This document shows, piece by piece, positions 388-35,491 of a DNA stretch of 35,491 bases. Below the pieces are notes generated by a model. That model saw only the letters and a program-made list of their open reading frames with translations, was not told where the DNA came from and made no database searches. Both the position numbers and the translations under genes were made by a program. Every line of letters starts with the position of its first letter. Position 1 is the first letter of the stretch. The stretch covers positions 1 to 35,491 of the IMG/VR virus record IMGVR_UViG_2671180778_000014; one strand, written 5' to 3'. This DNA is from a virus (lineage: Duplodnaviria > Heunggongvirae > Uroviricota > Caudoviricetes).

Positions 388-401
388 TTAATTTCTAATT
401 T

Positions 402-427: not shown

Positions 428-444
428 AAACTGGAGAATCAAAC

Positions 445-525: not shown

Positions 526-528
526 GCA

Positions 529-654: not shown

Positions 655-699
655 CGATATAAATATATCGTAATTCAAATAACAAGAGGAAATTCTACT

Positions 700-945
700 A
701 TGAAAAAGATTATCGCGGGTGTTGTTCTTGCTCTGGGTTTGGTTGGTGCTGCAAATGCCGAACAATATGTACAGGGTGATAGTGTCAAGCGTGCTGCCGT
801 TGCACCTTCTTTAAATCAACTGTGTACTGAATTAGCACAGGTTGCCGGAGTTGGTGACGATGACGACTTTATTACTGCGTGTGTATGGAGTCATATCGAG
901 GATATTAATAAACGTGATGCAAAACTAACTGGAAAGAAATATTAA
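700..945 (+). CDS. small secreted protein with N-terminal signal peptide
   Basis: RBS GAGGAA upstream; MKKIIAGVVLALGLVGAANA-EQ looks like a Sec signal peptide with AxA cleavage site; two Cys and a DDDD patch in the mature part; terminator follows. Confidence 0.55.
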   Translation: MKKIIAGVVLALGLVGAANAEQYVQGDSVKRAAVAPSLNQLCTELAQVAGVGDDDDFITACVWSHIEDINKRDAKLTGKKY

Positions 946-961
946 TGACTTACTAACCAAT

Positions 962-1001
962 GCCCCTATCGTTATAATACGCGGTAGGGGCGTTTTTGTT
1001 T
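962..1001 (+). terminator. rho-independent terminator
   Basis: GCCCCTATCG / CGGTAGGGGC stem followed by GTTTTTGTTT. Confidence 0.5.
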
Positions 1002-1010
1002 GGAAATGGT

Positions 1011-2690
1011 ATGAAAACTAAACTGTATTCGTATATTCGCTTCTCGTCTATGCGTCAGAATGATGGTTCGAGTTATGAACGACAAATCAGGATGGCGAGA
1101 GAGGTTGCGGCAAAGTATGACCTTGAACTGGTAAATGATTATCAGGATCTGGGTGTATCTGCGTTTAAGGGTGCTAACTCTAAAACAGGGGCGCTATCTC
1201 GTTTCCTTGATGCAATTGGTAGATCCGTTCCTGTTGGTAGCTGGCTATTCATCGAGAACTTGGACCGTTTATCCCGTGCCGATATTGTCAGTGCGCAGGA
1301 GTTATTCCTTTCAATAATCCGTAGGGGGATAACCATTGTTACTGGCATGGATAACAAGATCTACTCGCTGGATACTGTTACCGCTAACCCGATGGACCTG
1401 ATGTTCTCCATCCTTTTATTCATCCGTGGTAATGAGGAAAGCCAGACTAAGCGCAATCGTACTAACTCAAGCGCATTGATTAAGATTAAAGCTCATCAAG
1501 AAAATCCACAAAATCCGGCAGTGGCTATCGAGGAAGTTGGAAAGAATATGTGGTGGACTGATACCACTTCCGGTTATGTGTGTCCCGATCCGGTCTTCTT
1601 CCCTATTGTTCAGGAGGTTGTGGAATTACGCAGGAATGGACGGTCTACCGCCGAGATACTGGATCACCTTAACGCGACATATACACCACCACCAGCCGCA
1701 AGTCACAAGAGGCATTCAAACTGGTCACGAGCAATGATTGAAAGGTTGTTCCATACCCGCGCTTTGATTGGTATCAAGGAAATCTCTGTAGATGGCGTTA
1801 AGTATGAGTTAAAGGATTATTACCCTCGTGTGCTAGATGACGCTGAGTTTTATCACCTTAAGAAAAGCATTGGTGTTAGAGCATGTAACTATGGAGACAA
1901 AGAAGAAGCTAAACCGATCCCCCTGCTTAGTGGTGTTAATCTGCTGAAATGTGAACATTGCGGTTCCGCTATGGTTAAGGTGAAAGGAACTAACAAACGG
2001 CCTAACCAATATCGTTATTCATGCGATGCAATGCGCTCTAGTCGTATTGCATGTGTGCATACAAACTGGAGTTTTCGAGGTGATCAATTAGAGAAAGCTG
2101 TATTGCAATTGCTGGCTGATAAAATCTGGATTGCTGAGGATAAGGCTAATCCTGTTCCGGCTTTGAAAGTACAGATTGATGAGATATCACGCAAGATTGA
2201 TAACCTGATTACCCTTTCTGCTATGACTGGAGCAACGAAGGAGTTAGCCGACCAGATTACTACCCTCAATAGCGAGCGTGAAACACTCTATAATCAGATT
2301 AAGATGGCAGAAGAGGAAATGTATTCTGTGGACTCTCAAGGCTGGGAGAAGCTCGCAGAATTTGATTTAGAAGATGTTTATAACGAGGATCGCATTAAGG
2401 TCCGGTTTAAGATTAAGCAAGCTCTAAAACGGATCGGGTGTAGCAGGATTGACAAATACAAAAACTTGTTTGTATTGGAATACATTGATGGCAAGACCCA
2501 GAGAGTTGTAATAGAAAATTCAAGAGGACCGAGGAAAGGACAAATCTTTGTCGATTTGAAAACTATCAATGATAGGCAGATTCTGGAGAGTAACGGGCTT
2601 GTTCTGCATCCATGTTTAGACATGCTGACAGATAAAGACTGGAAGCCAGAAGAGGAAATACCAGGTCCATTACAGGAATTTGGAATTTAA
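1011..2690 (+). CDS. large serine recombinase (integrase/resolvase family)
   Basis: N-terminal YSYIRFSSMRQ matches the Y-x-R-x-S-x-x-Q catalytic serine motif; about 560 aa with Cys cluster (CEHCGS...YSCDAM...IAC) and coiled-coil region typical of large serine recombinases. ATG at 1011 preferred over the track's TTG at 996, which lies inside the upstream terminator. Confidence 0.75.
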   Translation: MKTKLYSYIRFSSMRQNDGSSYERQIRMAREVAAKYDLELVNDYQDLGVSAFKGANSKTGALSRFLDAIGRSVPVGSWLFIENLDRLSRADIVSAQELFLSIIRRGITIVTGMDNKIYSLDTVTANPMDLMFSILLFIRGNEESQTKRNRTNSSALIKIKAHQENPQNPAVAIEEVGKNMWWTDTTSGYVCPDPVFFPIVQEVVELRRNGRSTAEILDHLNATYTPPPAASHKRHSNWSRAMIERLFHTRALIGIKEISVDGVKYELKDYYPRVLDDAEFYHLKKSIGVRACNYGDKEEAKPIPLLSGVNLLKCEHCGSAMVKVKGTNKRPNQYRYSCDAMRSSRIACVHTNWSFRGDQLEKAVLQLLADKIWIAEDKANPVPALKVQIDEISRKIDNLITLSAMTGATKELADQITTLNSERETLYNQIKMAEEEMYSVDSQGWEKLAEFDLEDVYNEDRIKVRFKIKQALKRIGCSRIDKYKNLFVLEYIDGKTQRVVIENSRGPRKGQIFVDLKTINDRQILESNGLVLHPCLDMLTDKDWKPEEEIPGPLQEFGI

Positions 2691-23524: not shown

Positions 23525-25036
23525 TTAGGGATCGGCTGGGGAATTTTTTTCTTCACCCTCGCCATTAACGATAATATTTAGTGCGCTCTTTTCGGCTTGA
23601 ATCTCTGAGAATACTTTTTCAGGATCATCACCACGTTCAAGAATAACGGCAGTACGTGATTTAAGTCCGTTATCAATTAAAGCAATATCAGCGTTCACAT
23701 CTTTAATAACATCGACGGACTCAAAACGTGGCCTGATAATAGTAGTGTTATCGATAATATGTGGAATTGCAGTAATACGAATCGGAACAATACCACGCGC
23801 GGAATAATGGCGTAGATACGCTTCGAAAATTGGCAATACCACTGTTTCAATCAATTTGTTTTGTAGTGCTTTAACGCGGTTACGTTGAAGTAGTTCACCG
23901 AAGCGGGCTGCGCTGTAATTTATTTGGCTAGTATCACCAGTCAAGCCCTGTTTAAACACGCCAAGACCCATCGAGACACTCGTGAACATTCCATCATTGA
24001 ACGAATTGAAGTCGTCGCCACTTTGCGATGATTGAATGCTCTTGATCGTTGCCCCTTCCGGCAATTCCTGAATAGTACCAGGCGCGAAATCGTGAATTAC
24101 TTCCGGCGCTTGATATTGTTCATCCTCTTCACCAGTATCAAAATCGTCACCAGAATCTTTAGGACGCTCGATGAACGCCATGCTACTAGCTGAAATTCGT
24201 TTCTGGATCAGGACCGCTTCGCGGAATGCGTCTTGATGTGCGATATCCTTAATCACTGGCAGGAAGTCAGTCACGCCACGCAGAGATTCAGCCGCAAGTG
24301 GTTGATAATAATGGCATACTTGCGAAGCATCTACGCGATAGTTATCACCTGTGTAAGTCTGAGTCAGTAGGTTGATTTTACGAAACCAAAATGCAACAGG
24401 GCGCATTGTTTCTACGTCATACTCAATACCCTGATAGATAGCACGTTCTTTGCTTACTTCACGGTTGAGCGTCCAGTCGCACTTATCAGCAGACAGGATG
24501 GAAACATTTAACTCATTGTTTTCTTTGGTTAAAACGATGAAGCACTCACCACCCATAACGCGCTCACGTTCAGCCATCACCAGCAGTTCACGGAAGTTAA
24601 AACGACCATTGCGGGAGAAGCGTTTAGCATTCTGCGCCCACTTCCAGAAAGCATTCTCGATCTGCTTATTCAGTGCGGTATCAAGTTTGCCATTTGATTT
24701 AACGATTGATGGCTTCGGATCTAGGCCAGTGCCGACCACCATATCGGTGATGTATTGCGTGTAGCGACTGCCTACGGAAGTGTTTAAGGCCAGAGTACGA
24801 CCCTGATCATAAAGGCGCTTACCATTCGATTTGAGAGCCTTATTGAAGGTTCCTGTAATGGTATCTTGTTGAAGCGATCCATCAATGCGATCACCAACCA
24901 GTCCTAAACTACGAGTCGCCAGAGATTTCTGGTATTTTTCTATAGATTTGTCGATAAAGATTTTTTGTTGTTGCTGGCGGTGATTAGTTTTAACTGGAGT
25001 TTCTACCGCCTTATTGCGTCGAAAAAGATTAAACAT
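23525..25036 (-). CDS. portal protein
   Basis: 503 aa located between the large terminase and the capsid gene; size and synteny match lambda-type portals; RBS AAGGGGT. Confidence 0.75.
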   Translation of the reverse strand: MFNLFRRNKAVETPVKTNHRQQQQKIFIDKSIEKYQKSLATRSLGLVGDRIDGSLQQDTITGTFNKALKSNGKRLYDQGRTLALNTSVGSRYTQYITDMVVGTGLDPKPSIVKSNGKLDTALNKQIENAFWKWAQNAKRFSRNGRFNFRELLVMAERERVMGGECFIVLTKENNELNVSILSADKCDWTLNREVSKERAIYQGIEYDVETMRPVAFWFRKINLLTQTYTGDNYRVDASQVCHYYQPLAAESLRGVTDFLPVIKDIAHQDAFREAVLIQKRISASSMAFIERPKDSGDDFDTGEEDEQYQAPEVIHDFAPGTIQELPEGATIKSIQSSQSGDDFNSFNDGMFTSVSMGLGVFKQGLTGDTSQINYSAARFGELLQRNRVKALQNKLIETVVLPIFEAYLRHYSARGIVPIRITAIPHIIDNTTIIRPRFESVDVIKDVNADIALIDNGLKSRTAVILERGDDPEKVFSEIQAEKSALNIIVNGEGEEKNSPADP

Positions 25037-25613: not shown

Positions 25614-27518
25614 TTAGAACGATGTTACCCAGCTACGGCCTCTATTTGGGCGTCTGGCGATGTTTTTACGTTGTGGTCGTGTGATTGGCTTATTTTCTTC
25701 GATTTGCTCGTCAGATTGCGTTTCAGGAGCTTTTACGGGTTCTTCTGGTTCACGGTTCAAACTATCTTTGATGGCTTCGAGTTTTTCCCATGACATTTTA
25801 TTGAGTACATGGCGAGAAGCAGCATAGGAATAAGCCAGGCAGTCGAGAGCCTCGTTTCGTTGCTGACCAACTTTTACCCAACGTGTGGTATTACCCTGCC
25901 GTTTCAACTGTTCAGAAAGCAATTGCTCGCAATAGTCATCAGGAACGTCACCAATCTGGAAGACAGTGTGAGGATCTCCATCTCTCAAGTTCCGGTTAAT
26001 CATTTCGCGGATCATCGTCTTAAGGTTGTTTACGCCCAGAATTTTAAGGGTAAAACCACCTGTTCTTGTGTCTTTTACCGGAAGGATTGGAGCATCAACA
26101 TTGCTTGCGCCCTTAATGGCTGATAGGTTTTGCCACCGACTACAAAAGCGGTAGATCACTTGCGTAGCACGTCCGTTTGATGAGTCCACGAAAGCGGATA
26201 GCATCGGGATTCGTTGACCGGATCGGGTATAGAATTTAGCTTTCAGGAAGTTGTAAAGCTGGTCATATGCTGGTGATTCGTGGCGTTCGCAGTTCACATC
26301 ATAGAATGATCGGTGATCAACTACGCATATCCCTTTACGCGAGATACCCAGCAAGGTAGATTCCAGACGGTCTTTTTGCTGGTCAACTCCACCTACCAGA
26401 GCCAGAACATCATCAGGGATATTGTCTAAGCTAATATCAGTTTTCAGCGTTTCCAGTTCGTCGGCTGTGCGGTCTTCGTTAAGATCATCGAAGGTTTCAC
26501 CTAAGACAGTGTTATAGAACGTTGCCAGTGACATATTCGCGTAGCTATCAGCAAAATCCACCACACACGCACGGATAGAACTAAACGGAGACATAAGGCG
26601 GTTAGCATGAAAACCGATTACTTCCGCATTAGGTTCGGTGGCGATCCATTCTCCCTTAGCAACAGCACGTAGGCGATCCCCTTCGGTCCAGTCGGTTTCA
26701 CATTCAGGGCAACGATAAACGGCTGTGTCGGGCGAAGGCAGTGATTTACCATTAACTTGATGCCAATCAAAATGGACGTTACTCCATTCCATTACGTGTC
26801 TGTGTCCGCAATGCTGGCATGGAACATAGTATTTTCGTTTATCTGATAGCTCGAATTGTTGGTTGATCGCCCCATCTCGCGACGTTGGAGTAGAAGCAAT
26901 TACGATCCGTGCATCTTCCCCGAAAGTGGTTGCTCGTTGTTCCGCTAGCTGGATCGGGTTCCCTTCATCTGATTCATCAGCCGCATCAACTTCATCAAGA
27001 ATAATCAAAGGCAGTGTCTTACCGCGCAAGTGTGATGGACTGTTCAGCGACATGAAATACATGAATGATCCGTTACGAAGCTGAATAATCGATGAGTTGT
27101 TAACAGCATTACGGTCTGATTTGTCGGTGATCATCGCTTTTAATTCTGGCGTAGCCTCTAATACTGGCTTCACCTTACCAGCGATCCAAGAATTTAGTTC
27201 TCTAACGTTTGATTGCAACACCCCTATATTCGTAGGGTTACTGGCGATCCTGTGGAAGATAATTCCGTTAAGAATCATAGTCTTACCCAACTGCGCCGAA
27301 CATTTAAACACAATTTTTCTACGGTCTTCGGTGATCGCGTCCATCATTCCACGTTGGAAGGGATGCAATTTAATTAGAGATCCGGCTTTAACGCCATCGG
27401 TAGCCACTACGTTAGCCTCTACCCATTCGCTAGGTTTCATGGCTTTAGGCGGTCGAATTGCAGCAGAGATATTTTTAAGAATCTTTTTTAATTTAGCCTT
27501 ATTAGAAATCAGTTTCAT
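25614..27518 (-). CDS. terminase large subunit (lambda gpA family)
   Basis: 634 aa; N-terminal PSEWVEANVV ... LHPFQRGMMDA and C-terminal RNEALDCLAYSYAA match the recalled lambda gpA pattern (AVEWADANYY ... LPFQRAIMNA ... RRNEALDCFVYALAA); Walker A-like QLGKT. Confidence 0.85.
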   Translation of the reverse strand: MKLISNKAKLKKILKNISAAIRPPKAMKPSEWVEANVVATDGVKAGSLIKLHPFQRGMMDAITEDRRKIVFKCSAQLGKTMILNGIIFHRIASNPTNIGVLQSNVRELNSWIAGKVKPVLEATPELKAMITDKSDRNAVNNSSIIQLRNGSFMYFMSLNSPSHLRGKTLPLIILDEVDAADESDEGNPIQLAEQRATTFGEDARIVIASTPTSRDGAINQQFELSDKRKYYVPCQHCGHRHVMEWSNVHFDWHQVNGKSLPSPDTAVYRCPECETDWTEGDRLRAVAKGEWIATEPNAEVIGFHANRLMSPFSSIRACVVDFADSYANMSLATFYNTVLGETFDDLNEDRTADELETLKTDISLDNIPDDVLALVGGVDQQKDRLESTLLGISRKGICVVDHRSFYDVNCERHESPAYDQLYNFLKAKFYTRSGQRIPMLSAFVDSSNGRATQVIYRFCSRWQNLSAIKGASNVDAPILPVKDTRTGGFTLKILGVNNLKTMIREMINRNLRDGDPHTVFQIGDVPDDYCEQLLSEQLKRQGNTTRWVKVGQQRNEALDCLAYSYAASRHVLNKMSWEKLEAIKDSLNREPEEPVKAPETQSDEQIEENKPITRPQRKNIARRPNRGRSWVTSF

Positions 27519-27605
27519 GTAATTACCCTCATTACGAAATATGAAGGTATTTATTAAGTTGTTGATTTTTTGATAAATACGGGTATTAAGATTTAAGGGG
27601 GTTGT

Positions 27606-28211
27606 ATGCTAATTAATCAGCAACAAAGAGATGTATTAGAATTAGCCTTTTCTTGTTGTACCGATCATGAATATCGTTTGCCAGTTAAGCACCATCACAA
27701 GAAGACTGATTACACAACATCCGGCTTTAGTCGCGAGGAAGCTAAACAGATTTTAATCGAGTTGTATCGTGATCATGGGTATACCGATATTCATAACTTC
27801 TTTAAGAAGCACCGAACATCACAGACAGAGTTTAATAGAGTCCGTGAATGGTTTGATTTTGACATTAAGCGATTCTATCGAGTGGATGACGGTCCAATCT
27901 ATCGGTTGCAGTGGACACCGATTAGGGAAGTGCTTAAACAGAAGAGATTGAATCATGCCATTACACGCTATCGTAACGTGGCTTTTAAGAAAGGCTATGG
28001 TGATACAAGGGAACTATTCGTTGAACTCGCTAACGTGCGATATAGCCACTATTACAGGAATCCTAAAGAGTTCTTCGAAGTGCTGCGCAAGGTTGATATA
28101 AGTCGGGGTACATACTATTCACGGTTGAAGAAGTACGGGATTAAGGCAGAGTTCTTTATGTCGGTTGACGATGGAGAACTTTTTCCGATAAAATGTAAGT
28201 CCTCTAAATAA
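27606..28211 (+). CDS. hypothetical DNA-binding protein with C-terminal HTH
   Basis: 201 aa; C-terminal FEVLRKVDISRGTYYSRLKKYGI is HTH-like; RBS AAGGGGG; divergent from the terminase gene. Confidence 0.5.
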   Translation: MLINQQQRDVLELAFSCCTDHEYRLPVKHHHKKTDYTTSGFSREEAKQILIELYRDHGYTDIHNFFKKHRTSQTEFNRVREWFDFDIKRFYRVDDGPIYRLQWTPIREVLKQKRLNHAITRYRNVAFKKGYGDTRELFVELANVRYSHYYRNPKEFFEVLRKVDISRGTYYSRLKKYGIKAEFFMSVDDGELFPIKCKSSK

Positions 28212-28239
28212 AGGTGAACATTCACTTTAATTTGGAGAA

Positions 28240-28473
28240 ATGACTATGACTACTAAAGCTACTCGCGGTCGCCCTGCCCGTTTTAACGCTGAACAGATGG
28301 CTGATATTGCCTACGCTTACTATACAGCGGATCGCGGGAAGGAAGCGAAAGAACAGATTCTTAGTGAACATGGGATCTCAATCGCCCAATTCTATAAGAA
28401 TATGAAGAAGTTAGACATTAAATTCTATGTTCAGATCGGTGATGGTCAGATCGTAGAAGCAACAGGTTTTTGA
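28240..28473 (+). CDS. small HTH protein resembling a terminase small-subunit N-terminal DNA-binding domain
   Basis: 77 aa; TRGRPARFNAEQMADIAYAYY ... GISIAQFYKNMKK fits the GRPxK(F/Y) + HTH pattern of some small terminase N-termini (Sf6 gp1-like as recalled). Confidence 0.5.
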   Translation: MTMTTKATRGRPARFNAEQMADIAYAYYTADRGKEAKEQILSEHGISIAQFYKNMKKLDIKFYVQIGDGQIVEATGF

Positions 28474-28488
28474 GTTTTGATTCTCTTT

Positions 28489-28513
28489 GCCACTCTTCGG
28501 AGTGGCTTTTTTT
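28489..28513 (+). terminator. rho-independent terminator
   Basis: GCCACTC-ttcg-GAGTGGC hairpin followed by TTTTTTT. Confidence 0.6.
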
Positions 28514-28516
28514 ATG

Positions 28517-28544
28517 CCTATAGAAAACAAAAAAGCCCCGCACT
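28517..28544 (-). terminator. rho-independent terminator (conserved family)
   Basis: minus-strand AGCCTCGC-ctagt-GCGGGGCT followed by TTTTTTG; third copy of the AAAAAAGCCCC...GGCT module. Confidence 0.5.
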
Positions 28545-28558
28545 AGGCGAGGCTAAAA

Positions 28559-29029
28559 TCATACTTTGATTCGGACAAACTTGCATCCTAACTCATTTTC
28601 AATTCTTCGTTGACGGATCTCGTCTTGCTCTTTCTTGTACTGGTGTTCTGGTTCATCAATTTCATAAGCTATATTATTAACCGGATCATAACCATCAATT
28701 CGATAGTTTAACACCCGACACTGGCGAATCAGGTTGATACCTAAAACTTGTTCTATAGTGTTAAGAGCAATCTTTTCGGCAGTAGATAAACCAAAACGTA
28801 AGCCGTTATAGCGTTTATACATCGCATCTGCTAATTGTCCACACAGCATATAGTGACACTTTTTTCGATTTTGGGAATCTACATACACAGATTCAACAAA
28901 AGCAATTCCTGTATTTTTAGAAACTAACCTAACGTCACGCAAAACATCTTGATGTCTCTTTCCAAATTCTTTAGCCAAATCCAGAGAGCTAATCTGTTCT
29001 TTTTCTAATTGTAATGCAGCATTTCCCAT
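28559..29029 (-). CDS. Rha-type N-terminal domain protein with small C-terminal nuclease-like domain
   Basis: LAKEFGKRHQDVLRDVRLV matches the Rha regulatory domain signature; C-terminal YDPVNNIAYEIDEPEH ... KFVRIK has acidic residues compatible with an endonuclease-like fold (tentative). Confidence 0.5.
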   Translation of the reverse strand: MGNAALQLEKEQISSLDLAKEFGKRHQDVLRDVRLVSKNTGIAFVESVYVDSQNRKKCHYMLCGQLADAMYKRYNGLRFGLSTAEKIALNTIEQVLGINLIRQCRVLNYRIDGYDPVNNIAYEIDEPEHQYKKEQDEIRQRRIENELGCKFVRIKV

Positions 29030-29072
29030 AAAGTACCCCTTAAAAGCCCCTGAAATTCAGGGGCAAAAATTA

Positions 29073-29906
29073 TTACAGTCCGAAGACTTCCAGAGAGCCA
29101 GCATTCTGACGAATCAGCAAAGCAGTGTTATTAATGATTGCTCGTGAGTTATTCGGCTGTGGCAATTTCAAAGTTGCGGCCTTTTCTTCTTCAAGCAATC
29201 CGAGTTTTACGAGATGCGGGATAGCATCAGCAGTGAACTCGATCTGACCGTGTGCCGACATACGAGCGAACATATAGCCAGGAGGAAGCAGATCATAGCC
29301 TTTAGGCTTACCAGAAGCATCCAGACGACGCTCAAGAACACCAGCAGCACATAAACCTTTCAGAATCATTTGTACCTTCGTAGAGCCTCGTTTTTCGCCT
29401 AATAAGCGGCTAAGACTGTGTGCATCAATAGCTTTACGGATATGAAGATCAACTAATTGTTCTTTTTCTTGAATCAGTTGTTCGTTTGCGGCTTCTAATT
29501 CCATTGCCTCACGAATCCAATCGAGCTTAGTCATGTTTGCGTATGGGTTGACTTGCTGAGAACGCAGTTTTTCATTTTCTTCTTTCAGTCGTTTCCATTC
29601 CTGAATAACAACCATTCGACGCTTAACATCGTAACCAGTGACAAGAGTCAGAGTCATTTCTTCGTCTAGTTGATATTCGTTTTGTTCGCGTCCGTATTGG
29701 TCAAAATAGATGACGCGAAACTTCGCGTGATCTTCATAACCTAGAGCATTCAACATCTTAGTTATATCAACTTTAACTTTGTGGTGTTCTTTTCCGGTAA
29801 ATTCAGCGATCTGACGAGAAGACATGGTCAGTGGTTTGGTGTTATCAACAACCAGAGACACGGAAGCAGTTTTAACAGCAGTATTCATAGTAGTAACAGT
29901 ATTCAT
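29073..29906 (-). CDS. antirepressor-type regulator (Rha N-terminal domain + KilAC-like C-terminal domain)
   Basis: SSRQIAEFTGKEHHKVKVDITKMLNAL ... VIYFDQYGREQNEYQL is Rha-like; C-terminal LSRLLGEKRGSTKVQMILKGLCAAGVLERR ... GYMF is KilAC/Ant-like. Confidence 0.7.
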   Translation of the reverse strand: MNTVTTMNTAVKTASVSLVVDNTKPLTMSSRQIAEFTGKEHHKVKVDITKMLNALGYEDHAKFRVIYFDQYGREQNEYQLDEEMTLTLVTGYDVKRRMVVIQEWKRLKEENEKLRSQQVNPYANMTKLDWIREAMELEAANEQLIQEKEQLVDLHIRKAIDAHSLSRLLGEKRGSTKVQMILKGLCAAGVLERRLDASGKPKGYDLLPPGYMFARMSAHGQIEFTADAIPHLVKLGLLEEEKAATLKLPQPNNSRAIINNTALLIRQNAGSLEVFGL

Positions 29907-29977
29907 AGTAAAAATTCCCCTTAAACGGTTTAGTGATTTGGTCCTCCTAGTTCCGGCATCACTACCGGAACAATTTT

Positions 29978-29984
29978 ATTTATA
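29978..29984 (-). promoter_or_regulatory. candidate -10 element (TATAAAT) of recurring promoter motif
   Basis: minus-strand CTCTTATAAATAAA about 70 nt upstream of the start at 29906. Confidence 0.3.
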
Positions 29985-29998
29985 AGAGCTATTTCTTA

Positions 29999-30331
29999 TT
30001 ACCAATCGATTTCTACCTGATCTTCTTCGTAGTAAGGAATCGCATACTCATAACGCCAGTTTTCGATGATTTCACGTTCTTCATTGGTAAGAAGGTGATT
30101 GCTAACTGGAGTCGCATTATGATTACCAGCTTCGAATTGCTCGCGAACTTCCAGCATTGCATGAATACCAGTTAAAGACATAAGGTCAAACGGGATATGC
30201 ATACTACGTGAGATAGGTTCACGGGAAACGCCCCAATCATTTTCTACATGGCGAGCTTTAACCAAAACGGTTTTACCAATGATTTCTACAGTCCAGTCAT
30301 ACAAGGATTTAGTGATGGTAAATTCTTTCAT
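29999..30331 (-). CDS. hypothetical protein (early-type, downstream of a strong promoter)
   Basis: 110-aa ORF; strong sigma70-like promoter about 50 nt upstream. Confidence 0.5.
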   Translation of the reverse strand: MKEFTITKSLYDWTVEIIGKTVLVKARHVENDWGVSREPISRSMHIPFDLMSLTGIHAMLEVREQFEAGNHNATPVSNHLLTNEEREIIENWRYEYAIPYYEEDQVEIDW

Positions 30332-30387
30332 GTTACATCCTCTTTACAAATCTAGGTCAAATAGGTTCAAAATTGTCAAGTGCGATA

Positions 30388-30416
30388 ATCATAAAAAAGT
30401 CAAAAAATTTTGTCAA
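30388..30416 (-). promoter_or_regulatory. sigma70-type promoter (TTGACA - 17 nt - TATGAT)
   Basis: minus-strand TTGACA at 30416-30411, 17-nt AT-rich spacer, TATGAT at 30393-30388; further TTGACA boxes nearby. Confidence 0.5.
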
Positions 30417-30451
30417 TACCCCTTGACAAGATGCCAAAGGGTTGACCTAAC

Positions 30452-30919
30452 TTACAGCATATCTAAGCCTTCATCGTAACCGTAGAAGCTATTGTGAGAA
30501 GAAAAACAGATTGGTGCGTAGTCTTCGTCTTCCTCGTCTTCTTCATCTTGTTCTGGGGCTTCCTGAGCGGTTTCTTTGCCGTAGTTAAACATTGCTTCAT
30601 CCAGTTCATAGACAGTAACGAAGCTACCTAAATCAATGTCACCTGACCGGACTTCGAAAGGCAGATCATCACGAACAATAATTGCTGGTAGATTCTGGTA
30701 TTTCAGGCGATCTTCATCGGTGAAGCAGTTAACAACGATGGTAGGACGTTTATTTCTTCCGAAAACATACCATGCACTAGAGAAATGGGATTCATCGGTA
30801 TTGTAAAGGATGTTATAACCACGTTCACGGAACATCTTCATTAACTTGTCATTGTGAAAGCTATCTGCATCCAGACCCAGAAGGATAAAAGGAGTAGTGG
30901 TAGTCATTTTGTGGTTCAT
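30452..30919 (-). CDS. hypothetical acidic protein
   Basis: ATG at 30919 preceded by GAGGA with 8-nt spacer; C-terminal EQDEEDEEDEDY acidic tail. Confidence 0.5.
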   Translation of the reverse strand: MNHKMTTTTPFILLGLDADSFHNDKLMKMFRERGYNILYNTDESHFSSAWYVFGRNKRPTIVVNCFTDEDRLKYQNLPAIIVRDDLPFEVRSGDIDLGSFVTVYELDEAMFNYGKETAQEAPEQDEEDEEDEDYAPICFSSHNSFYGYDEGLDML

Positions 30920-30965
30920 AGTGGTAATCCTCAAAAAGAAAGTTAATCAAAGTAATTCTGATATT

Positions 30966-30972
30966 ATTTATA
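30966..30972 (-). promoter_or_regulatory. candidate -10 element (TATAAAT) of recurring promoter motif
   Basis: minus-strand CTCTTATAAATAATA about 50 nt upstream of the start at 30919. Confidence 0.3.
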
Positions 30973-31224
30973 AGAGAAAATTCTTGATGATTTTGGAAGG
31001 GATGGATTCAGTCGGGCTAAAGCCCTCCTTCATAGATTTGATTAAAAGACCAGCAAACGTAACTCGGATCTTATAGTTAATATAGTTATCTTTGAAGAAA
31101 TAATAATCAGGAAGCAATTTCAGCAACCGCAGGTTGCGATCCCGAAGGGATAACCAATACCTTTCTAGAAAGTGATTGTTACTCACTTCGTTCGTTTACT
31201 AGAATCAGTTATCATCTAGTATTA

Positions 31225-31595
31225 AATCCCTTTCTAAGAAAATCCTTTCAAAAGTGAGTGAACGCCGTAGGCGTGAACGTGAGCGAAGCGAACTATCCAA
31301 TCCCTTTCGAATCCTGCTTGCAGGTCTTAGAAGGTGTTGGTGGGCGCTACGCGCACGGCTACGCCGTATTCTTTTTGCGAGATCTTTCTTGAACGTAGTG
31401 AGAGAAAGCGAGCAAAAAGGAGAACGTTAGTTCGAATTTTATATTCTATGGTCTGTTGGGTATAATCCCTTTCAAGATCATACACTTACGTGATTGAAGT
31501 GTAGGGTTAGTGTAGGTGTGTAGGTTTCATAGTGTAGGTTTGAGAGTGTTATAGTGTAGGTTTACTGGCTAGTGTAGTGTAGGCCAATCCCTTTA
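31225..31595 (+). repeat. dispersed direct repeats of the 10-mer AATCCCTTT(C/A)
   Basis: copies at 31225, 31299, 31464 and 31586, a degenerate copy at 31241, and an inverted copy at 35108-35117. Confidence 0.6.
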
Positions 31596-31617
31596 AAGTG
31601 TAGGTGTGTAGTGTAGG
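31499..31617 (+). repeat. iteron array of the heptamer GTGTAGG (about 10 copies, mostly GTGTAGGTT)
   Basis: copies at 31499, 31510, 31518, 31532, 31554, 31577, 31598, 31611 plus GTGTAGT variants at 31572 and 31606, followed by an AT-rich stretch. Confidence 0.7.
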
Positions 31618-31813
31618 TTTTCTATCAAAAATTTTGACAAAAATTATTGTATATTATTTAACCAAAAAATCACCAAAAAGCGGCGTAAATTCATGATTTA
31701 AAAGAAATTTTCAAAAGATCTCCGTGCCATAATAGGTTATAAAGGTTGATAATCATTATTTGCCATTTTCAAACAAAAATTTTGATACACTTTTCTCGCT
31801 TAGATCATTGGTA

Positions 31814-31842
31814 TTGACAAGTGTCAAGAACTATTTTATACT
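31814..31842 (+). promoter_or_regulatory. consensus sigma70 promoter (TTGACA - 17 nt - TATACT)
   Basis: TTGACA at 31814-31819, 17-nt spacer, TATACT at 31837-31842. Confidence 0.6.
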
Positions 31843-31849
31843 TTTTCTC

Positions 31850-32007
31850 ACTGGTAGGGGTTGAAATTTTCCAAACAATCCACATATAGATGATAAGCAT
31901 GATTTTTTCGTGTATAAATACATGCATGAAAAATGATTGTTCACTTCTGAAAACCTCCTGACTCACTGTTAACTCATACAGCACTGGTTAGATACACAGT
32001 GCTTTTT
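31850..32007 (+). ncRNA. candidate small non-coding RNA (promoter-to-terminator unit)
   Basis: about 160 nt between the consensus promoter and an intrinsic terminator (AGCACTG ... CAGTGCT + TTTTT at 31980-32007); no RBS-supported ORF. Confidence 0.3.
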
Positions 32008-32131
32008 CGGTTGAATATTGTACGGATTGATTAATTATTAATCTTCTCTTTAGCAATTCGTGCTCCCTCTGATCGGATATACAGTGGTTTTACAGAGTTT
32101 TTGAAAATCATTTTTATAAATAGAATTGTTC

Positions 32132-32150
32132 AGAGCGAAAAGCTCTTTTT
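32132..32150 (+). terminator. terminator/attenuator hairpin
   Basis: AGAGC-gaaa-GCTCT followed by TTTTT, 35 nt upstream of the 60-aa gene. Confidence 0.4.
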
Positions 32151-32186
32151 AAAAAAATCATTATTCCAGATTTAGGAGGATTCAAG

Positions 32187-32369
32187 ATGGCACGACCTGT
32201 TAAGTTCACTCGTGAAATCGTTTTAGAAATGGCAAAGCGTTATTTTGAACTGACACCTGATGTAGTGATGGGTGATTGGTTTAAAGGTGAAGGCATTGAT
32301 CAATCAACCTTCCATAAACTTTTAAAGAAGTATGAAATTCGCGTAAAGATTACCGCCGAGGTGTGGTAA
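32187..32369 (+). CDS. small HTH protein (paralog of the 77-aa protein)
   Basis: 60 aa; ARPVKFTREIVLEMAKRY ... GIDQSTFHKLLKKY parallels RGRPARFNAEQMADIAYAYY ... GISIAQFYKNMKK; RBS AGGAGG. Confidence 0.5.
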   Translation: MARPVKFTREIVLEMAKRYFELTPDVVMGDWFKGEGIDQSTFHKLLKKYEIRVKITAEVW

Positions 32370-32413
32370 TAACCTTTGACTGAGAATTATATGATGGCTT
32401 TAAAAATAAAAAA

Positions 32414-32441
32414 GCCTCCCTGTTGGCGCAAGGAGGCTTTT
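32414..32441 (+). terminator. rho-independent terminator
   Basis: GCCTCC-ctgttggcgcaa-GGAGGC followed by TTTT. Confidence 0.5.
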
Positions 32442-32486
32442 GATATGAACAATTAAAACTAACACAGCATTCAGGAGTATTTATAA

Positions 32487-33488
32487 ATGAAAAATTCTAA
32501 GCGCATCACCTTCAACCTGTTCATTAAATCCAACGGCAAACTGAACATTACCGTTATGGAAGGTAAAGCAAGCAAACAAGACAAATCCTTTGAAGTAGTA
32601 TCCGGTAAGACTCTGACCGAAATGCGTCAGAATGCTGGCATCAAAGACGGTGCTGAATGGCAGATCACTAACCGTTTCGACAAACGTCACGTTAAACCTA
32701 CACTGGTAGAAGGTGAATCCGTTTATTGCTTCGCTCGTGCTGTTAAAGCCGATGAAACTTACTATCTCGCTGTTATTAAAACTGCTTCCGGTTTCCGTGC
32801 TGTAATGCATCACAAGAGCAAGCGTAACGAATACGGCGTAGAGACCCAGGAAGTTGCAAAACGCTTCCGTACTGTTGCTACTGAATCCACTGTAAAAGAT
32901 GTTTCTGGTACTGTTAACACCGCTAAAGGCGGTTCCTTCTACAACCACGCATTACAGGTTACTTCCTCCTTCTTCTGCAAAAAAGAAGCACAGAAAGAAG
33001 TTGCTCCGGTAGTAGTTGAAGAAGTTAAAGAAGAAGTAGCAGTGGTTGAATCTTCCGAAGTTGAAGCACTGAAAGCACGCATCGCTGAACTGGAAGCTGA
33101 AAACGCATCTCTGAAAGCTGAACTGGCAGCACAGGAAACCACTTTCGAAGTAGCAGCGGTTGAAGTTGAAGCAGTTGAAGAAAAATCCATTGATGAAGAA
33201 CTGGAAGAACTCCTTAACTATCGCTGGGGTAACGGTGAAGAAGTAGAACAGGAAGAACAGAAAGAAGCTGATCCGGTAGTAGTTCCGGTTGAAGCAGAAT
33301 CCGCACCAGTTACTAACTTTGAATCCCTGCGCAATAACTTTATGGCTAAATTCAAAACCACTTGGGAAGATACCGAAGAAGAACAAGAAGAGATTGATGT
33401 AAACGAAGACGAGATCCGCGAAGCACAGATGGCACTGCATGACGCTATCTATGACACCAACTACAGCGCCTACGCATACGCAGCTTAA
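32487..33488 (+). CDS. acidic coiled-coil protein with host-optimal codon usage (function unknown)
   Basis: 333 aa; N-terminal ~170-aa Lys/Thr-rich domain, then EALKARIAELEAENASLKAELAAQ coiled coil and acidic tail; codons are almost exclusively E. coli high-expression choices (CTG, CGT, GGT, GCT, TCC, AAC, GAA), unlike the rest of the window. Confidence 0.6.
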   Translation: MKNSKRITFNLFIKSNGKLNITVMEGKASKQDKSFEVVSGKTLTEMRQNAGIKDGAEWQITNRFDKRHVKPTLVEGESVYCFARAVKADETYYLAVIKTASGFRAVMHHKSKRNEYGVETQEVAKRFRTVATESTVKDVSGTVNTAKGGSFYNHALQVTSSFFCKKEAQKEVAPVVVEEVKEEVAVVESSEVEALKARIAELEAENASLKAELAAQETTFEVAAVEVEAVEEKSIDEELEELLNYRWGNGEEVEQEEQKEADPVVVPVEAESAPVTNFESLRNNFMAKFKTTWEDTEEEQEEIDVNEDEIREAQMALHDAIYDTNYSAYAYAA

Positions 33489-33503
33489 TAGAGGGGTGAA
33501 TCT

Positions 33504-33746
33504 ATGATGAATCAAAACAAAGAATTTCTGGGTAACTTGATGTTAGAAATTACCAAAATGAAAGAAAGAATGGTAGCGATGGAATCAGAGATTAAAACTC
33601 TTAAAGCTGATAATAAGGCGTTGAGAAAGTCCTTAAAGCTGATTGATGAGACTAATGCTGTTATGATGGATCATGTATTCCCTGAGTGGCGAAATGAAAC
33701 TAAACCTACACAACATAAGAAACCTACACTTCGAATTGTTGCATAA
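33504..33746 (+). CDS. small coiled-coil protein
   Basis: 80 aa; RBS GAGGGGTG; heptad-like KERMVAMESEIKTLKADNKALRKSLKLI. Confidence 0.5.
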   Translation: MMNQNKEFLGNLMLEITKMKERMVAMESEIKTLKADNKALRKSLKLIDETNAVMMDHVFPEWRNETKPTQHKKPTLRIVA

Positions 33747-33768
33747 AAAAGGGACTCCGAAGAGTCCC
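33745..33768 (-). terminator. terminator hairpin (minus-strand orientation, possibly bidirectional)
   Basis: GGGACTC-cgaa-GAGTCCC preceded by AAAAAA on the plus strand, which gives a T-run on the minus strand. Confidence 0.4.
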
Positions 33769-33845
33769 TAGTAAGTTTAGGTTAGGTTTGCACAACAAAG
33801 ATGAGGTTATAATGAACATAATGCTACATTATTCTTTAAAGCCAG

Positions 33846-33871
33846 AAAAATAACCGCCCCCGAAGGGGCGG
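33846..33871 (-). terminator. rho-independent terminator
   Basis: minus-strand CCGCCCC-ttcg-GGGGCGG followed by TTATTTTT. Confidence 0.4.
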
Positions 33872-34028
33872 GAGGATTAATACTCAATCTATACTTGTTA
33901 TGTTTTTATGTTGTATAGATCACTGACTATGAAAACACTGTACTGGATGTGTTTTATGGCTTTTAATCGGGAATCCTCAAAGAAGATCCCCTGTTAATAA
34001 CCATAAGGAGAAAAGGCAGATTACACTA

Positions 34029-34202
34029 TTATTTAGTATCCTTTTTACAGCAACTAAAAAGAATAAACAGGATTAAGCATACCCAGCCGTAAGGCGTACC
34101 GATTAGAAATTTGAAAAATACCACCAGCGATATAAAAATCAATTTAATGCCAGCGACGATAGTCAAAAACAGCAGAGTAGCAAAGTAGACAAAAAGATCC
34201 AT
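34029..34202 (-). CDS. small membrane protein (57 aa)
   Basis: RBS AGAGGA 7 nt upstream of ATG; MDLFVYFATLLFLTIVAGIKLIFISLVVFFKFLIGTPYGWVCLILFILFSCCKKDTK is strongly hydrophobic with two predicted helices. Confidence 0.35.
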   Translation of the reverse strand: MDLFVYFATLLFLTIVAGIKLIFISLVVFFKFLIGTPYGWVCLILFILFSCCKKDTK

Positions 34203-34255
34203 AGATAATCCTCTTTGAAAACGACCATCATCTATAGTTCAATTCATCGATTTAA

Positions 34256-34357
34256 TTAATGATACTTGAAAGCGTTACACACAGCAGAAATGCCAATATG
34301 TGCCAGTGAATATACGATAGTTAATCCTACAGCCAGATAAATTAAAAATTCAACCAT
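34256..34357 (-). CDS. small hydrophobic peptide (33 aa)
   Basis: RBS GAGGA then ATG; MVEFLIYLAVGLTIVYSLAHIGISAVCNAFKYH. Confidence 0.3.
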   Translation of the reverse strand: MVEFLIYLAVGLTIVYSLAHIGISAVCNAFKYH

Positions 34358-34454
34358 AGGTAAATCCTCAAATAAGAAAAAGGTTAGCGGGGGGTGATTC
34401 CCCCCGTAGACGTTGACCATCAACATCTTTCATACATTTATTTATAACGAGTTT

Positions 34455-35006
34455 TTACGACACATCAAATTCATCGTCTTCTTCTGGTTCTTGTTCCGGT
34501 TCATCCATTAATGGTAATTCTTCTTCCTCGTCTTCTCCCAAATCTGCATTTTCGAACAAGTCCCCTACTTCATTTAAACGACGCTCGATGATCTCCCTTA
34601 GCTTATTCTTCAATGTTTTCTGGTCAGTGGCAGATTCGAGAATTTCTAAAGCGTCGATTGTGGCGATCTGCAAAATAGTCTGCTTCACTTTTCCGCAATA
34701 TTCCGCTAGTTGCTGTTCTACATACCCGACCGGAATCAGGAGATTCATTGCTTCCTGGTTCTCTCGTTCGGCTGCGTCCGCTAATGCTCTCTCGCGGCGT
34801 AATTTCTCTACGTCAATTTGTTCCTTGACAGTAGTTTCCTTGAGCGGGTTGATGATATTTTTTAATACCCACTCGGTCCCCTCTTTGGCTGGTACGCGTC
34901 GTGTATTGGTATTAAATGGCATTCCTCGTTCTTGCCATTTCTTAGCGGCGTTAATTGTATAGCCGTATAAGCGGGAAATTTCTGTAAGGGTTAATTCTTC
35001 TTTCAT
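34455..35006 (-). CDS. terminase small subunit candidate (lambda Nu1-like winged HTH)
   Basis: ATG at 35006 preceded by GGAGG; LTLTEISRLYGYTINAAKKWQERGMPF parallels the recalled Nu1 N-terminus (QLADIFGASIRTIQNWQEQGMPV); about 180 aa with acidic C-terminus. Confidence 0.45.
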   Translation of the reverse strand: MKEELTLTEISRLYGYTINAAKKWQERGMPFNTNTRRVPAKEGTEWVLKNIINPLKETTVKEQIDVEKLRRERALADAAERENQEAMNLLIPVGYVEQQLAEYCGKVKQTILQIATIDALEILESATDQKTLKNKLREIIERRLNEVGDLFENADLGEDEEEELPLMDEPEQEPEEDDEFDVS

Positions 35007-35491
35007 CCGGTTATCCTCCATTAAATTTGCGTAAAATTATTTATCTGATCTGCGCATTCAGGAGAGCGCCTAAAACGCTTTATAACGAAGGGAAAGATCG
35101 AGGCGGGGAAAGGGATTGGCTGGTGTTAATAGTCGCGTAGCGACCGCGCTGGTGGGCTGCACTGCACCTGTTTTGAAATCTCACACGCACATCAAAAACC
35201 GGGGTGCCGAAAACTCGCTTTATTTCACCCGTGGAACAGTACCTTTTGATTTTGTCAAGTCTTTTTTATAAATAATCGAAAATATTTTTCACACGAGGGC
35301 AAATCATGAATACTAAAGATATTAAGATTGACTTTGAAACTGTTGATGACGTTCGGGAACATCGCATTGATTCTACTGGCTGAATCTTCCAGCTTACTAA
35401 CCCCCCTATTGGATTGATTATCTATGTAGCAGAAGATGACGTGTACGCTATATGGGATGGACAGGATGAGTTTAAAGGCGGGAATAGCCAT

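What the first reader, a model, noticed from the sequence alone, without database searches (positions are those of the whole stretch)
27519..35021. Nu1-like small terminase candidate separated from the gpA-type large terminase by a ~7 kb mosaic island
In lambda-type systems Nu1 and A are adjacent. Here the only Nu1-like winged-HTH gene (34455-35006) lies about 7 kb from the large terminase gene, with opposite-strand genes, antirepressors, iterons, promoters and at least nine terminator hairpins in between. Either the small terminase is displaced by an inserted module, or this protein is a Nu1-like regulator and the real small terminase is one of the other HTH proteins or lies outside the window.
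Basis: inference. Interest (0 to 1): 0.6.

Follow-up and report, generated by a model that had tools for sequence, protein, structure and literature searches.

The report
Split lambda-type terminase genes in prophage
The gene at 34455-35006 is a genuine lambda-Nu1-type small terminase. A whole lineage of roughly 30-38 kb, mostly enterobacterial prophages keeps it, with a candidate cos site, 5-7 kb away from the large terminase gene, with the phage's early and probable replication genes in between.

Summary
A Nu1-type small terminase gene (terS, 34455-35006, minus strand) lies 6.9 kb from a gpA-type large terminase gene (terL, 25614-27518, minus strand). The interval holds opposite-strand genes, two Rha/Ant regulators, iterons and many terminator-like hairpins.

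The protein is a true TerS homologue:
- PHROG 57 "terminase small subunit" matches its full length (E 1.6e-15).
- Profile-profile comparison with lambda gpNu1 gives 93.6-99.1% probability.
- The best fold match is a phage TerS DNA-binding domain.
- In 20 of 20 loci from a sister lineage, its homologues sit directly upstream of, and overlapping, a gpA-type terL.

The gap is not a recent insertion. It is present in every relative examined (22 close, 1 intermediate, 7 distant), and these form one clade on a TerL tree.

The window covers nearly the whole ~35 kb E. coli prophage, which is inserted in ycdX by a serine integrase. Its only non-structural module is this "island". The island includes an iteron array that co-varies with the adjacent 333-aa protein, so it probably carries the replication origin.

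A single-copy ~90-bp non-coding element (35158-35247) lies upstream of terS in both lineages. It is my candidate cos site. The spacer next to it co-varies with the TerS DNA-binding allele, as cosB does in lambda and phage 21.

This is a new variant of a known system and is moderately interesting.

The parts
34455..35006 (-). terS: Nu1-type small terminase subunit, 183 aa. It has an N-terminal winged HTH, three long helices and an acidic disordered tail.
   Evidence: phrog_57 'terminase small subunit', E 1.6e-15, residues 2-173. hhalign against lambda gpNu1: 93.6% with A1, 94.3% with A3, 99.1% (E 1.2e-18) with A2. Weak PDB sequence hits to 6hn7_B, 1j9i_A and 7lw0_A. AF2 model. Best Foldseek hit is 6hn7_B, a phage TerS DNA-binding domain, probability 0.97. 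Homologues are adjacent to terL in the sister lineage.
35158..35247 (-). Conserved single-copy non-coding element upstream of terS; candidate cos core. It contains the heptamer AGGTACT (35238-35244), GAGTTTTC, the GC-rich core CGGCACCCCGG (35199-35209), and then an A/T-run segment.
   Evidence: Aligned across 15 loci whose TerS proteins share only 30-40% identity. The sequence-only model R1 finds one strong hit per locus, always upstream of terS on the same strand; the only second hit is a weak opposite-strand match (E 0.39) inside the L046 element. It finds none near terL. RNAalifold predicts no pairs.
35030..35144 (-). Spacer between the conserved element and terS; candidate cosB (TerS-binding region). 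It includes the palindrome GTCGCTACGCGAC (35132-35144) and an imperfect inverted repeat TGCGCA...TTACGCA just before the Shine-Dalgarno sequence.
   Evidence: Blocks in this spacer differ between the two TerS wHTH alleles (TINAAKKWQ and SLNGGGKRWL), while the flanking blocks are identical.
34388..34406 (-). Terminator-like hairpin CGGGGGG-AATCA-CCCCCCG followed by a T-rich tail, immediately after terS.
   Evidence: Read directly from the sequence. It suggests that terS is a separate short transcription unit.
25614..27518 (-). terL: gpA-type large terminase, the first gene of the head-tail-lysis operon.
   Evidence: GpA_ATPase 2.1e-62, GpA_nuclease 1.3e-46. phrog_15, 2.6e-147. Portal, capsid and tail genes follow on the same strand.
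27519..27605 (.). 87-bp divergent intergenic region between terL and the 201-aa gene. Any promoter for the terL operon must lie here or inside the opposite-strand genes.
   Evidence: Gene arrangement. There is no copy of the terS-upstream element here.
27606..28473 (+). The 201-aa and 77-aa small HTH-type proteins. The 201-aa protein looks like two tandem copies of the 77/60-aa module. They are not terminase-like.
   Evidence: No Pfam, PHROG or NCBIfam family. Weak pairwise similarity among them.
28559..29906 (-). Two Rha/antirepressor-type regulators (156 aa and 277 aa).
   Evidence: Phage_pRha 2.2e-7 and 2.8e-11; PHROG anti-repressor families.
29999..30934 (-). Two conserved early genes of unknown function (110 aa and 160 aa).
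   Evidence: No family hits. The 160-aa gene is present in all 22 close relatives and the 110-aa gene in 8 of them.
30935..32186 (.). 1.25-kb non-coding region with the iteron array (GTGTAGG x8, 31499-31617), an adjacent AT-rich stretch and four AATCCCTTT motifs; candidate replication origin.
   Evidence: The iteron class co-varies with the presence of the 333-aa gene and not with the TerS allele.
32187..33746 (+). The 60-aa HTH protein, the 333-aa protein (variable N-terminal domain, coiled coil, acidic tail; candidate iteron-binding initiator) and an 80-aa coiled-coil protein.
34029..34426 (-). Two small hydrophobic ORFs downstream of terS. Other relatives carry a 94-aa membrane protein here instead.

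Best explanation
The window is an almost complete ~35 kb temperate siphovirus-type prophage of E. coli. It has about 40% GC, a serine integrase, and is inserted in ycdX. It packages DNA with a lambda-type two-subunit terminase whose genes are unlinked.

terS (34455-35006) encodes a Nu1-family small subunit. It stays next to a conserved non-coding element (35158-35247) that I interpret as the cos core, and to a variable spacer (35030-35144) that I interpret as cosB. terL (25614-27518) opens the head-tail-lysis operon 6.9 kb downstream. The phage's early module lies between them: regulators, and an iteron origin with its candidate initiator.

The layout is ancestral to a whole lineage. In the sister lineage the same element, terS and terL are contiguous.

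Proposed mechanism (inferred):
1. TerS is made from its own short transcription unit and binds the spacer through its winged HTH.
2. It recruits TerL through the TerS C-terminal region and the conserved basic N-terminus of TerL.
3. TerL nicks the adjacent core to make cohesive ends.
4. Packaging runs from cos through terS, the early region and terL towards the tail, lysis and int end.

What is shown: the homologies, the gene order, its conservation, the single-copy element, and the allele co-variation.
What is inferred: cos identity, nick positions, the TerS-TerL contact, and transcription timing.
For: TerS identity:
- phrog_57 matches the full length, E 1.6e-15.
- hhalign to lambda gpNu1 gives 93.6% (E 2e-7) with close relatives only, and 99.1% (E 1.2e-18) with 55 relatives, covering Nu1 residues 2-163.
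- 28 of 55 family members hit Pfam Phage_Nu1, best E 9e-18.
- The fold and sequence matches are to TerS DNA-binding domains 6hn7_B and 1j9i_A.
- Length and architecture resemble gpNu1.

Partner: terL is gpA-type.

Canonical position of homologues: 20 of 20 sister-lineage loci have the TerS homologue overlapping a gpA-type terL.

Conserved split:
- 22 of 22 close relatives.
- L026, with about 58% TerS identity and also inserted in ycdX.
- L030-L036, with 5-6 kb gaps.
- These form one clade on the TerL NJ tree.
- 64 of 5,426 complete E. coli genomes carry the region.

The island is the only early module: ycdX fragments flank a ~35 kb element, and everything outside the island is integrase, lysis or structural.

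cos candidate:
- Model R1 finds one copy per locus, upstream of terS, including in loci not used to build it, and none near terL.
- There is no RNA structure.
- The spacer co-varies with the TerS wHTH allele, as described for lambda and 21 cosB and TerS (PMC4669245).

Interface: two terL alleles only 58% identical share identical first 16 residues, while the TerS C-terminal half is constant.
Against: - No virion DNA ends are available, so the cos assignment is inference. The element could instead be a conserved promoter or operator for terS.
- The window protein itself is below the Pfam Phage_Nu1 gathering score (15.4 bits against 30).
- The AF2 model is of only moderate confidence (pLDDT 69).
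- The shared TerL N-terminus may simply mark a recombination breakpoint next to the conserved intergenic region.
- Nobody has shown that these prophages are inducible or make particles.
- The replication role of the iterons and the 333-aa protein rests only on co-variation. The structure prediction failed.
- The TerL tree is midpoint-rooted NJ, not a rigorous phylogeny.
Confidence: 0.75

Rival explanations
1. Recent mosaic insertion. A foreign ~7 kb module recently landed between adjacent terS and terL genes in this particular prophage, and the packaging genes were contiguous until then.
For: The interval is mosaic. The antirepressor, the iteron/333-aa cassette, the small membrane genes and even terL exist as alternative alleles among otherwise similar prophages. 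The sister lineage has contiguous genes.
Against: Every relative examined has the gap, down to about 40% TerS and 46% TerL identity, and these form one TerL clade. The interval holds the prophage's only regulatory and candidate replication functions, so it cannot be dispensable cargo.
Confidence: 0.05
2. The 183-aa protein is a Nu1-like DNA-binding regulator (or excisionase-like factor) and not a packaging subunit. TerL then works alone or with one of the small HTH proteins (201, 77 or 60 aa).
For: The N-terminal domain also resembles MerR, excisionase and BldC-type wHTH proteins in the fold search. The gene lies next to the att/int end and has its own terminator. The Pfam Nu1 hit is subthreshold.
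Against: Similarity to TerS and Nu1 extends beyond the HTH, through the helical self-association region. Homologues overlap terL in 20 of 20 sister loci. The 201-, 77- and 60-aa proteins hit no terminase family, and the 201- and 77-aa proteins are undetected in the distant split relatives.
Confidence: 0.08
3. The conserved 90-bp element is a transcription signal for terS (a late promoter or activator site), and the real cos lies elsewhere, for example in the 1.25-kb non-coding region or upstream of terL.
For: In the sister lineage terS is the first gene of the packaging operon, so a conserved promoter is expected there. In E. coli relatives a TTGACA hexamer lies just upstream. The resemblance to lambda cosQ is only 5 of 7 positions (G2, G3, T4, C6, T7) and the spacing differs.
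Against: If it were the late promoter, the split lineage should need a second copy at terL, and none exists. No sigma-70-like site was called there. The iterons co-vary with the 333-aa gene and not with TerS. The GC-rich core flanked by A/T runs, and the allele-linked spacer, fit the organisation of a cos site (PMC4669245, PMC4856287).
Confidence: 0.3
4. The prophage is a decaying or domesticated element (defective prophage or GTA-like). The split is then tolerated because the terminase no longer has to work as a phage packaging enzyme.
For: No recognisable repressor or replication protein families were found. One relative has terS split by an insertion (L021), and others carry IS elements or mcr-1 inside the region.
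Against: Intact terS, terL, portal, capsid, tail, lysis and integrase ORFs are kept in dozens of genomes of E. coli, Shigella and Salmonella and at more than one insertion site. The allelic cassettes look like active exchange among functional phages.
Confidence: 0.1

Closest known systems
Phage lambda terminase: gpNu1 (TerS), gpA (TerL) and cos (cosQ-cosN-I2-cosB)
   Same: The TerS is homologous (wHTH plus self-association region; hhalign 93.6-99.1%) and the TerL is gpA-type. terS is preceded by a conserved non-coding site with a heptamer resembling cosQ (AGGTACT against GGGTCCT), a GC-rich core, A/T runs and a TerS-proximal variable region.
   Different: In lambda, nu1 and A overlap (191-736 and 711-2636). 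Here they are 6.9 kb apart in separate transcription units, with opposite-strand early genes between them. Cohesive ends are not demonstrated, and model R1 does not detect lambda cos. The cosQ coordinates come from my memory of Wieczorek and Feiss 2001, not from a tool.
Lambda / 21 / N15 packaging-specificity cassettes (TerS recognition helix with cosB)
   Same: The core is conserved, while the TerS-proximal spacer and the TerS wHTH change together between alleles. PMC4669245 describes the same pattern for lambda and 21.
   Different: Specificity has not been tested here. No clear R-type repeats or IHF site were identified in the spacer.
cos-rpp modules of Gram-negative PICIs (for example EcCICFT073)
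   Same: A cos site plus a small TerS-binding or TerS-like gene sits without an adjacent terL (PMC9026076, PMC6739421). The best structural match of the window protein comes from that study's Rpp-TerS complex (6hn7).
   Different: The match is to the TerS chain, not to Rpp (6hlk is far weaker). The element here is a full 35 kb phage with its own co-evolving terL, capsid and tail genes, not a satellite.
P2/186-type phages (terS gene M and terL gene P in divergent operons) and T7 (genes 18 and 19 separated by 18.5/18.7)
   Same: These are precedents for small and large terminase genes that are not contiguous (own knowledge).
   Different: There the subunits remain within the same packaging and head gene cluster, 0.6-2 kb apart. 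Those small subunits are not Nu1-type. No early or replication module intervenes.

Membership tests
Nu1-type small terminase (Pfam Phage_Nu1 / PHROG 57) | [quoted passage not shown] | tested here: met
   hhalign aligns residues 4-91 to Nu1 2-109 (93.6%, E 2e-7) using close relatives only. There are weak PDB sequence hits to 1j9i_A and 6hn7_B. Foldseek's top hit is 6hn7_B, probability 0.97.
Nu1-type small terminase (Pfam Phage_Nu1 / PHROG 57) | Score above the curated family threshold | tested here: inconclusive
   Pfam Phage_Nu1 gives 15.4 bits against a gathering score of 30, which is not met. PHROG 57 gives E 1.6e-15 over the full length. 28 of 55 relatives hit Phage_Nu1 at E<0.01, best 9e-18.
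Nu1-type small terminase (Pfam Phage_Nu1 / PHROG 57) | Central helical self-association region and C-terminal TerL-binding region | tested here: inconclusive
   Long helices are predicted at 40-89, 93-125 and 129-152. hhalign with A2 extends to Nu1 residue 163. TerL binding cannot be tested with these tools.
Nu1-type small terminase (Pfam Phage_Nu1 / PHROG 57) | Encoded with a gpA-type large subunit in the same genome | tested here: met
   terL at 25614-27518 has both gpA domains. terS and terL co-occur in every relative whose fetched DNA reaches far enough downstream of terS.
Canonical lambda-type packaging module (cos-terS-terL contiguous) | terS immediately upstream of, or overlapping, terL | tested here: not met
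   The gap is 6,936 bp with opposite-strand genes. The feature is met in sister-lineage loci L037-L056 and in lambda.
Canonical lambda-type packaging module (cos-terS-terL contiguous) | cos site directly upstream of terS | tested here: inconclusive
   There is a single-copy conserved element at 35158-35247 with an allele-linked spacer. No end-mapping data exist.
Canonical lambda-type packaging module (cos-terS-terL contiguous) | Cohesive single-stranded ends on virion DNA | not testable with these tools
   This needs virion DNA or read-start analysis of sequencing runs.
PICI Rpp (redirecting packaging protein) | Small protein of a satellite that lacks terL and structural genes, homologous to Rpp | tested here: not met
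   The element encodes terL, portal, capsid and tail genes. The Foldseek match to Rpp (6hlk) is weak, probability 0.54, rank 26.

The most novel reading that the evidence does not exclude
The cos-terS unit is an autonomous packaging-specificity cassette that moved as a block to the att/int side of the early region, away from terL. A lambda-type terminase then works without gene adjacency or translational coupling. TerS is expressed from its own terminator-bounded unit, on a schedule independent of the late operon. terL alleles only 58% identical are interchangeable as long as a ~16-residue basic N-terminal docking peptide is kept.
Probability: 0.35. Interest if true: 0.55.

Novelty: new variant of a known kind. 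Interest (0 to 1): 0.4.

Why it matters
- Annotation pipelines and phage biologists usually look for the small terminase next to the large one. Here PGAP calls most copies "hypothetical protein".
- A whole lineage of enterobacterial prophages, present in 64 of 5,426 complete E. coli genomes, keeps cos and terS together but separated from terL. This suggests that the constrained linkage is cos with terS (recognition specificity) and not terS with terL.
- The lineage is a natural system for asking how a lambda-type holoenzyme assembles when its subunits are separately expressed, and which short TerL segment docks TerS.
- It also supplies a candidate cos consensus that can be used to find packaging sites in related uncultivated phages.

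Tried and rejected
- Iterons as TerS-binding (cosB-like) sites: rejected. The iteron class (GTGTAGG, TTCAGGGGCAAA or CGGGGA types) tracks the presence of the 333-aa gene perfectly and is independent of the TerS allele.
- AATCCCTTT motif (5 copies, 0.4 expected) as a TerS site: rejected. Its copies in the non-coding region follow the iteron class, not the TerS allele.
- Structured RNA: Rfam finds nothing in 27400-35491, and RNAalifold finds no pairs in the conserved element.
- Escherichia phage DCP80, the only phage-database hit to TerS, with terS 22 kb from terL: not usable as a distance. The record is a chimera of a 26 kb siphovirus fragment and a T4-like genome.
- Genome-contig scan with the protein found nothing.
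- Literature searches for a ycdX prophage or for non-adjacent terminase genes gave nothing relevant.
- AF2 model of the 333-aa protein was unusable (pLDDT 41.5), so no fold search was run.
- Logan contig ends near terS (L059 ends 388 bp upstream; L061 starts one base before the heptamer, in AAGGTACT) are probably assembly-graph breakpoints and were not used as evidence for DNA ends.
- The sigma-70 scan found no convincing promoter upstream of terS or terL.

Full report
**What the window is**

The window is 40% GC. Its minus strand carries a continuous module from terL down to tail, lysis and an endonuclease-like gene:
- terL at 25614-27518
- a head-tail joining protein
- the portal at 23525-25036
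- a 667-aa capsid protein
- tail tube, tape measure, distal tail and tail fibre genes
- an endolysin

A large serine recombinase lies at 996-2690 on the plus strand.

In the annotated genome NZ_CP122758, the same element sits between two fragments of the host gene ycdX, about 35.1 kb apart. Nothing else lies between those fragments. The window is therefore almost the whole prophage.

Close copies occur in 64 of 5,426 complete E. coli genomes. They also occur in Shigella and Salmonella.

**Check of the observation**

terS occupies 34455-35006 on the minus strand. The ATG at 35006 is preceded by GGAGGA, and database proteins start there. terL starts at 27518, so the interval is 6,936 bp.

The interval contains:
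- plus-strand genes of 201, 77, 60, 333 and 80 aa;
- minus-strand genes for two Rha/Ant regulators, plus 110-aa and 160-aa proteins;
- two small hydrophobic ORFs;
- a 1.25-kb non-coding region with eight GTGTAGG iterons;
- an excess of terminator-like hairpins, 13 against 5.9 +/- 2.7 in shuffles.

The description is accurate.

**Is the protein a small terminase?**

Direct Pfam evidence is weak: Phage_Nu1 scores 15.4 bits, below the threshold of 30. The other evidence is stronger.
- PHROG 57 ("terminase small subunit") matches residues 2-173 at E 1.6e-15.
- A profile of close relatives only (A1) aligns with lambda gpNu1 at 93.6% probability (E 2e-7). The 9-sequence A3 profile gives 94.3%. A 55-member profile from an exhaustive HMMER search gives 99.1% (E 1.2e-18) over Nu1 residues 2-163.
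- 28 of those 55 relatives hit Phage_Nu1 themselves, best E 9e-18.
- PDB sequence searches return three TerS DNA-binding domains among twelve weak hits.
- The AF2 model has a wHTH with pLDDT 82-86, three long helices and an acidic disordered tail. Its best fold match is the TerS chain of the Rpp-TerS complex 6hn7, probability 0.97.

The strongest evidence comes from gene order. Two more distant branches of the same protein family (30-37% identity) lie immediately upstream of, and overlapping, a gpA-type terL in 20 of 20 viral contigs. That is the canonical Nu1-A arrangement seen in lambda.

**Is the gap a recent insertion?**

No. The same order (terS, 5-7 kb, terL) is found in:
- all 22 close IMG/VR relatives;
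- a relative with about 58% TerS identity, also inserted in ycdX;
- seven relatives with about 40% TerS and 46-54% TerL identity.

A further relative at 47% identity has opposite-strand early genes right after terS and no terL within 2.6 kb.

On a midpoint-rooted NJ tree of TerL, all split loci form one clade and all contiguous loci form the other. The rearrangement is therefore old and fixed in the lineage.

In the contiguous sister lineage, a serine integrase (L046) and a primase-like gene (L037) lie upstream of terS. In the split lineage, the early genes lie between terS and terL, and the integrase stays on the far side of att. The simplest description is that the cos-terS block and the early region changed places.

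**What the "island" is**

Everything outside the interval is integrase, lysis or structural. The interval is therefore the only place for regulation and replication.

Among near-identical prophages the iteron array comes in three classes. The GTGTAGG class is present exactly when the 333/80-aa gene pair is present. The other classes carry a different protein of the same build at that position: a variable N-terminal domain, a coiled coil and an acidic tail. The iteron class is independent of the TerS allele.

I read this as an exchangeable origin-plus-initiator cassette, but only the co-variation supports that reading. The structure model of the 333-aa protein failed.

The 201-, 77- and 60-aa proteins share a small HTH module with each other. 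They match no terminase or other family. A 60-aa-like gene next to a long non-coding region also occurs in a distant relative.

**A candidate cos site**

The ~250 bp upstream of terS is non-coding and unusually conserved. A core of about 90 bp (window 35158-35247) aligns across loci whose TerS proteins share only 30-40% identity, in both the split and the contiguous lineages. The core reads AGGTWCT, then 21-24 nt, then GAGTTTTC, then a GC-rich 9-12-mer, then A/T runs.

A sequence-only model built from 15 copies finds one strong hit per locus, with no second strong copy anywhere. This includes 13 loci not used to build it and the 49-kb annotated E. coli region. The hit is always upstream of terS on the same strand. 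Nothing is found near terL, in lambda or in DCP80. RNAalifold predicts no base pairs, so the element is a DNA site.

Between the core and terS, short blocks differ between the two E. coli TerS alleles, which themselves differ in the wHTH (TINAAKKWQ against SLNGGGKRWL). Flanking blocks are identical. This matches the lambda and 21 pattern of shared cosQ/cosN with TerS-specific cosB (PMC4669245). The A/T-run segment recalls I2 (PMC4856287).

The heptamer resembles the lambda sequence GGGTCCT, which lies 23 nt before the right end (sequence verified). Its designation as cosQ is from my own memory. The spacing differs, and I do not claim to know the nick positions.

The main alternative is a conserved promoter or operator for terS. 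Against that reading, the split lineage has no second copy at terL.

**Expression and assembly (inferred)**

terS is followed at once by a GC hairpin with a T-rich tail (34388-34406). The next genes downstream are on the opposite strand. terL is separated from everything upstream by two plus-strand genes and an 87-bp divergent intergenic region. The two subunits must therefore be transcribed separately, unlike the overlapping genes of lambda and the sister lineage.

Two terL alleles only 58% identical occur in otherwise similar prophages. They share their first 16 residues (MKLISNKAKLKKILKN), and a similar basic motif persists in distant relatives. The TerS C-terminal half is nearly invariant. 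In lambda the N-terminus of gpA binds the C-terminus of Nu1 (own knowledge), so this may be the docking interface. It could equally be a recombination boundary.

**Verdict**

The protein is a real Nu1-type small terminase. The separation from terL is a conserved, lineage-wide genome organisation in which the early and probable replication module lies between the two terminase genes. cos (candidate) stays with terS.

This is a new variant of a well-known system and not a new kind of system. Non-contiguous terminase genes have precedents (P2, T7; own knowledge). To my knowledge a split on this scale, with an early module in between, has not been described for a lambda-type terminase. I rate the interest as moderate.

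Noticed in passing
window 31499-31617 and 32487-33746; loci L003 8526-9467 and L014 3100-4101: Near-identical prophages carry one of three iteron classes (GTGTAGG, TTCAGGGGCAAA or CGGGGA type). Each class has its own ~313-333-aa protein (variable N-terminal domain, coiled coil, acidic tail) downstream of the 60-aa gene. This looks like an exchangeable origin/initiator or immunity cassette with no known family.
   Followed up: partly
window 31225, 31299, 31464, 31586 (+) and 35109 (-): The motif AATCCCTTT occurs 5 times, against 0.4 expected, and only in non-coding early-region DNA. The four copies near the iterons follow the iteron class, not the TerS allele.
   Followed up: partly
window 31263-31275, 31344-31354, 31355-31367 (+) and 35132-35144 (-): There are four short GC-rich palindromes with a TAC/GTA centre and different arm sequences. 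In relative L027, the palindrome upstream of terS keeps its symmetry through changed arms (GCTC...GAGC). Function unknown.
   Followed up: no
window 25614-27518; loci L001-L022: terL exists as two alleles only ~58% identical inside prophages whose flanking genes are 85-100% identical. The first 16 codons are identical in both.
   Followed up: partly
L021 1398-3491: In one relative, terS is split (residues 1-68 and 63-159) by a ~1.6 kb insertion, probably an IS element, so that copy is defective. IS421 is annotated in this region in some E. coli genomes.
   Followed up: no
PQ671644.1 (Escherichia phage DCP80), L023 and L025: This GenBank 'complete genome' looks like a chimeric assembly. About 26 kb of a siphovirus related to this prophage is joined to T4-like sequence, with motA, ndd and two rIIA copies.
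   Followed up: partly
NZ_CP044443.1 2388498-2402246 (hit H52): In E. coli strain HeN100, the region matching this prophage interval also carries mcr-1.1 with ISApl1 and ISKpn26. The colistin-resistance transposon appears to have inserted into the prophage.
   Followed up: no
window 28559-29029 (-): The 156-aa protein combines a Rha-type N-terminal domain with a C-terminal region that weakly resembles DUF559/Vsr-like endonucleases (E 0.003-0.004), an unusual fusion.
   Followed up: no
window 27606-28473 and 32187-32369 (+); L035 6868-7035: The 77-aa and 60-aa proteins are weak paralogues, and the 201-aa protein seems to be two tandem copies of the same module. A similar 55-aa gene sits beside a ~1.3 kb non-coding region in a distant relative. 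This looks like a lineage-specific small HTH regulator family.
   Followed up: partly
window 1-2690 and L024 2756-3151 / 38246-38650: The prophage is inserted inside ycdX by a large serine recombinase. At ~40% GC it is far below its E. coli host (about 51%, own knowledge). A relative (L027) uses a different insertion site.
   Followed up: partly
window 34029-34426 (-); L003 7957-8241: Directly after terS there are small, very hydrophobic ORFs that differ between relatives: two short ones here and a 94-aa membrane protein elsewhere. They may be moron or superinfection-exclusion genes.
   Followed up: no
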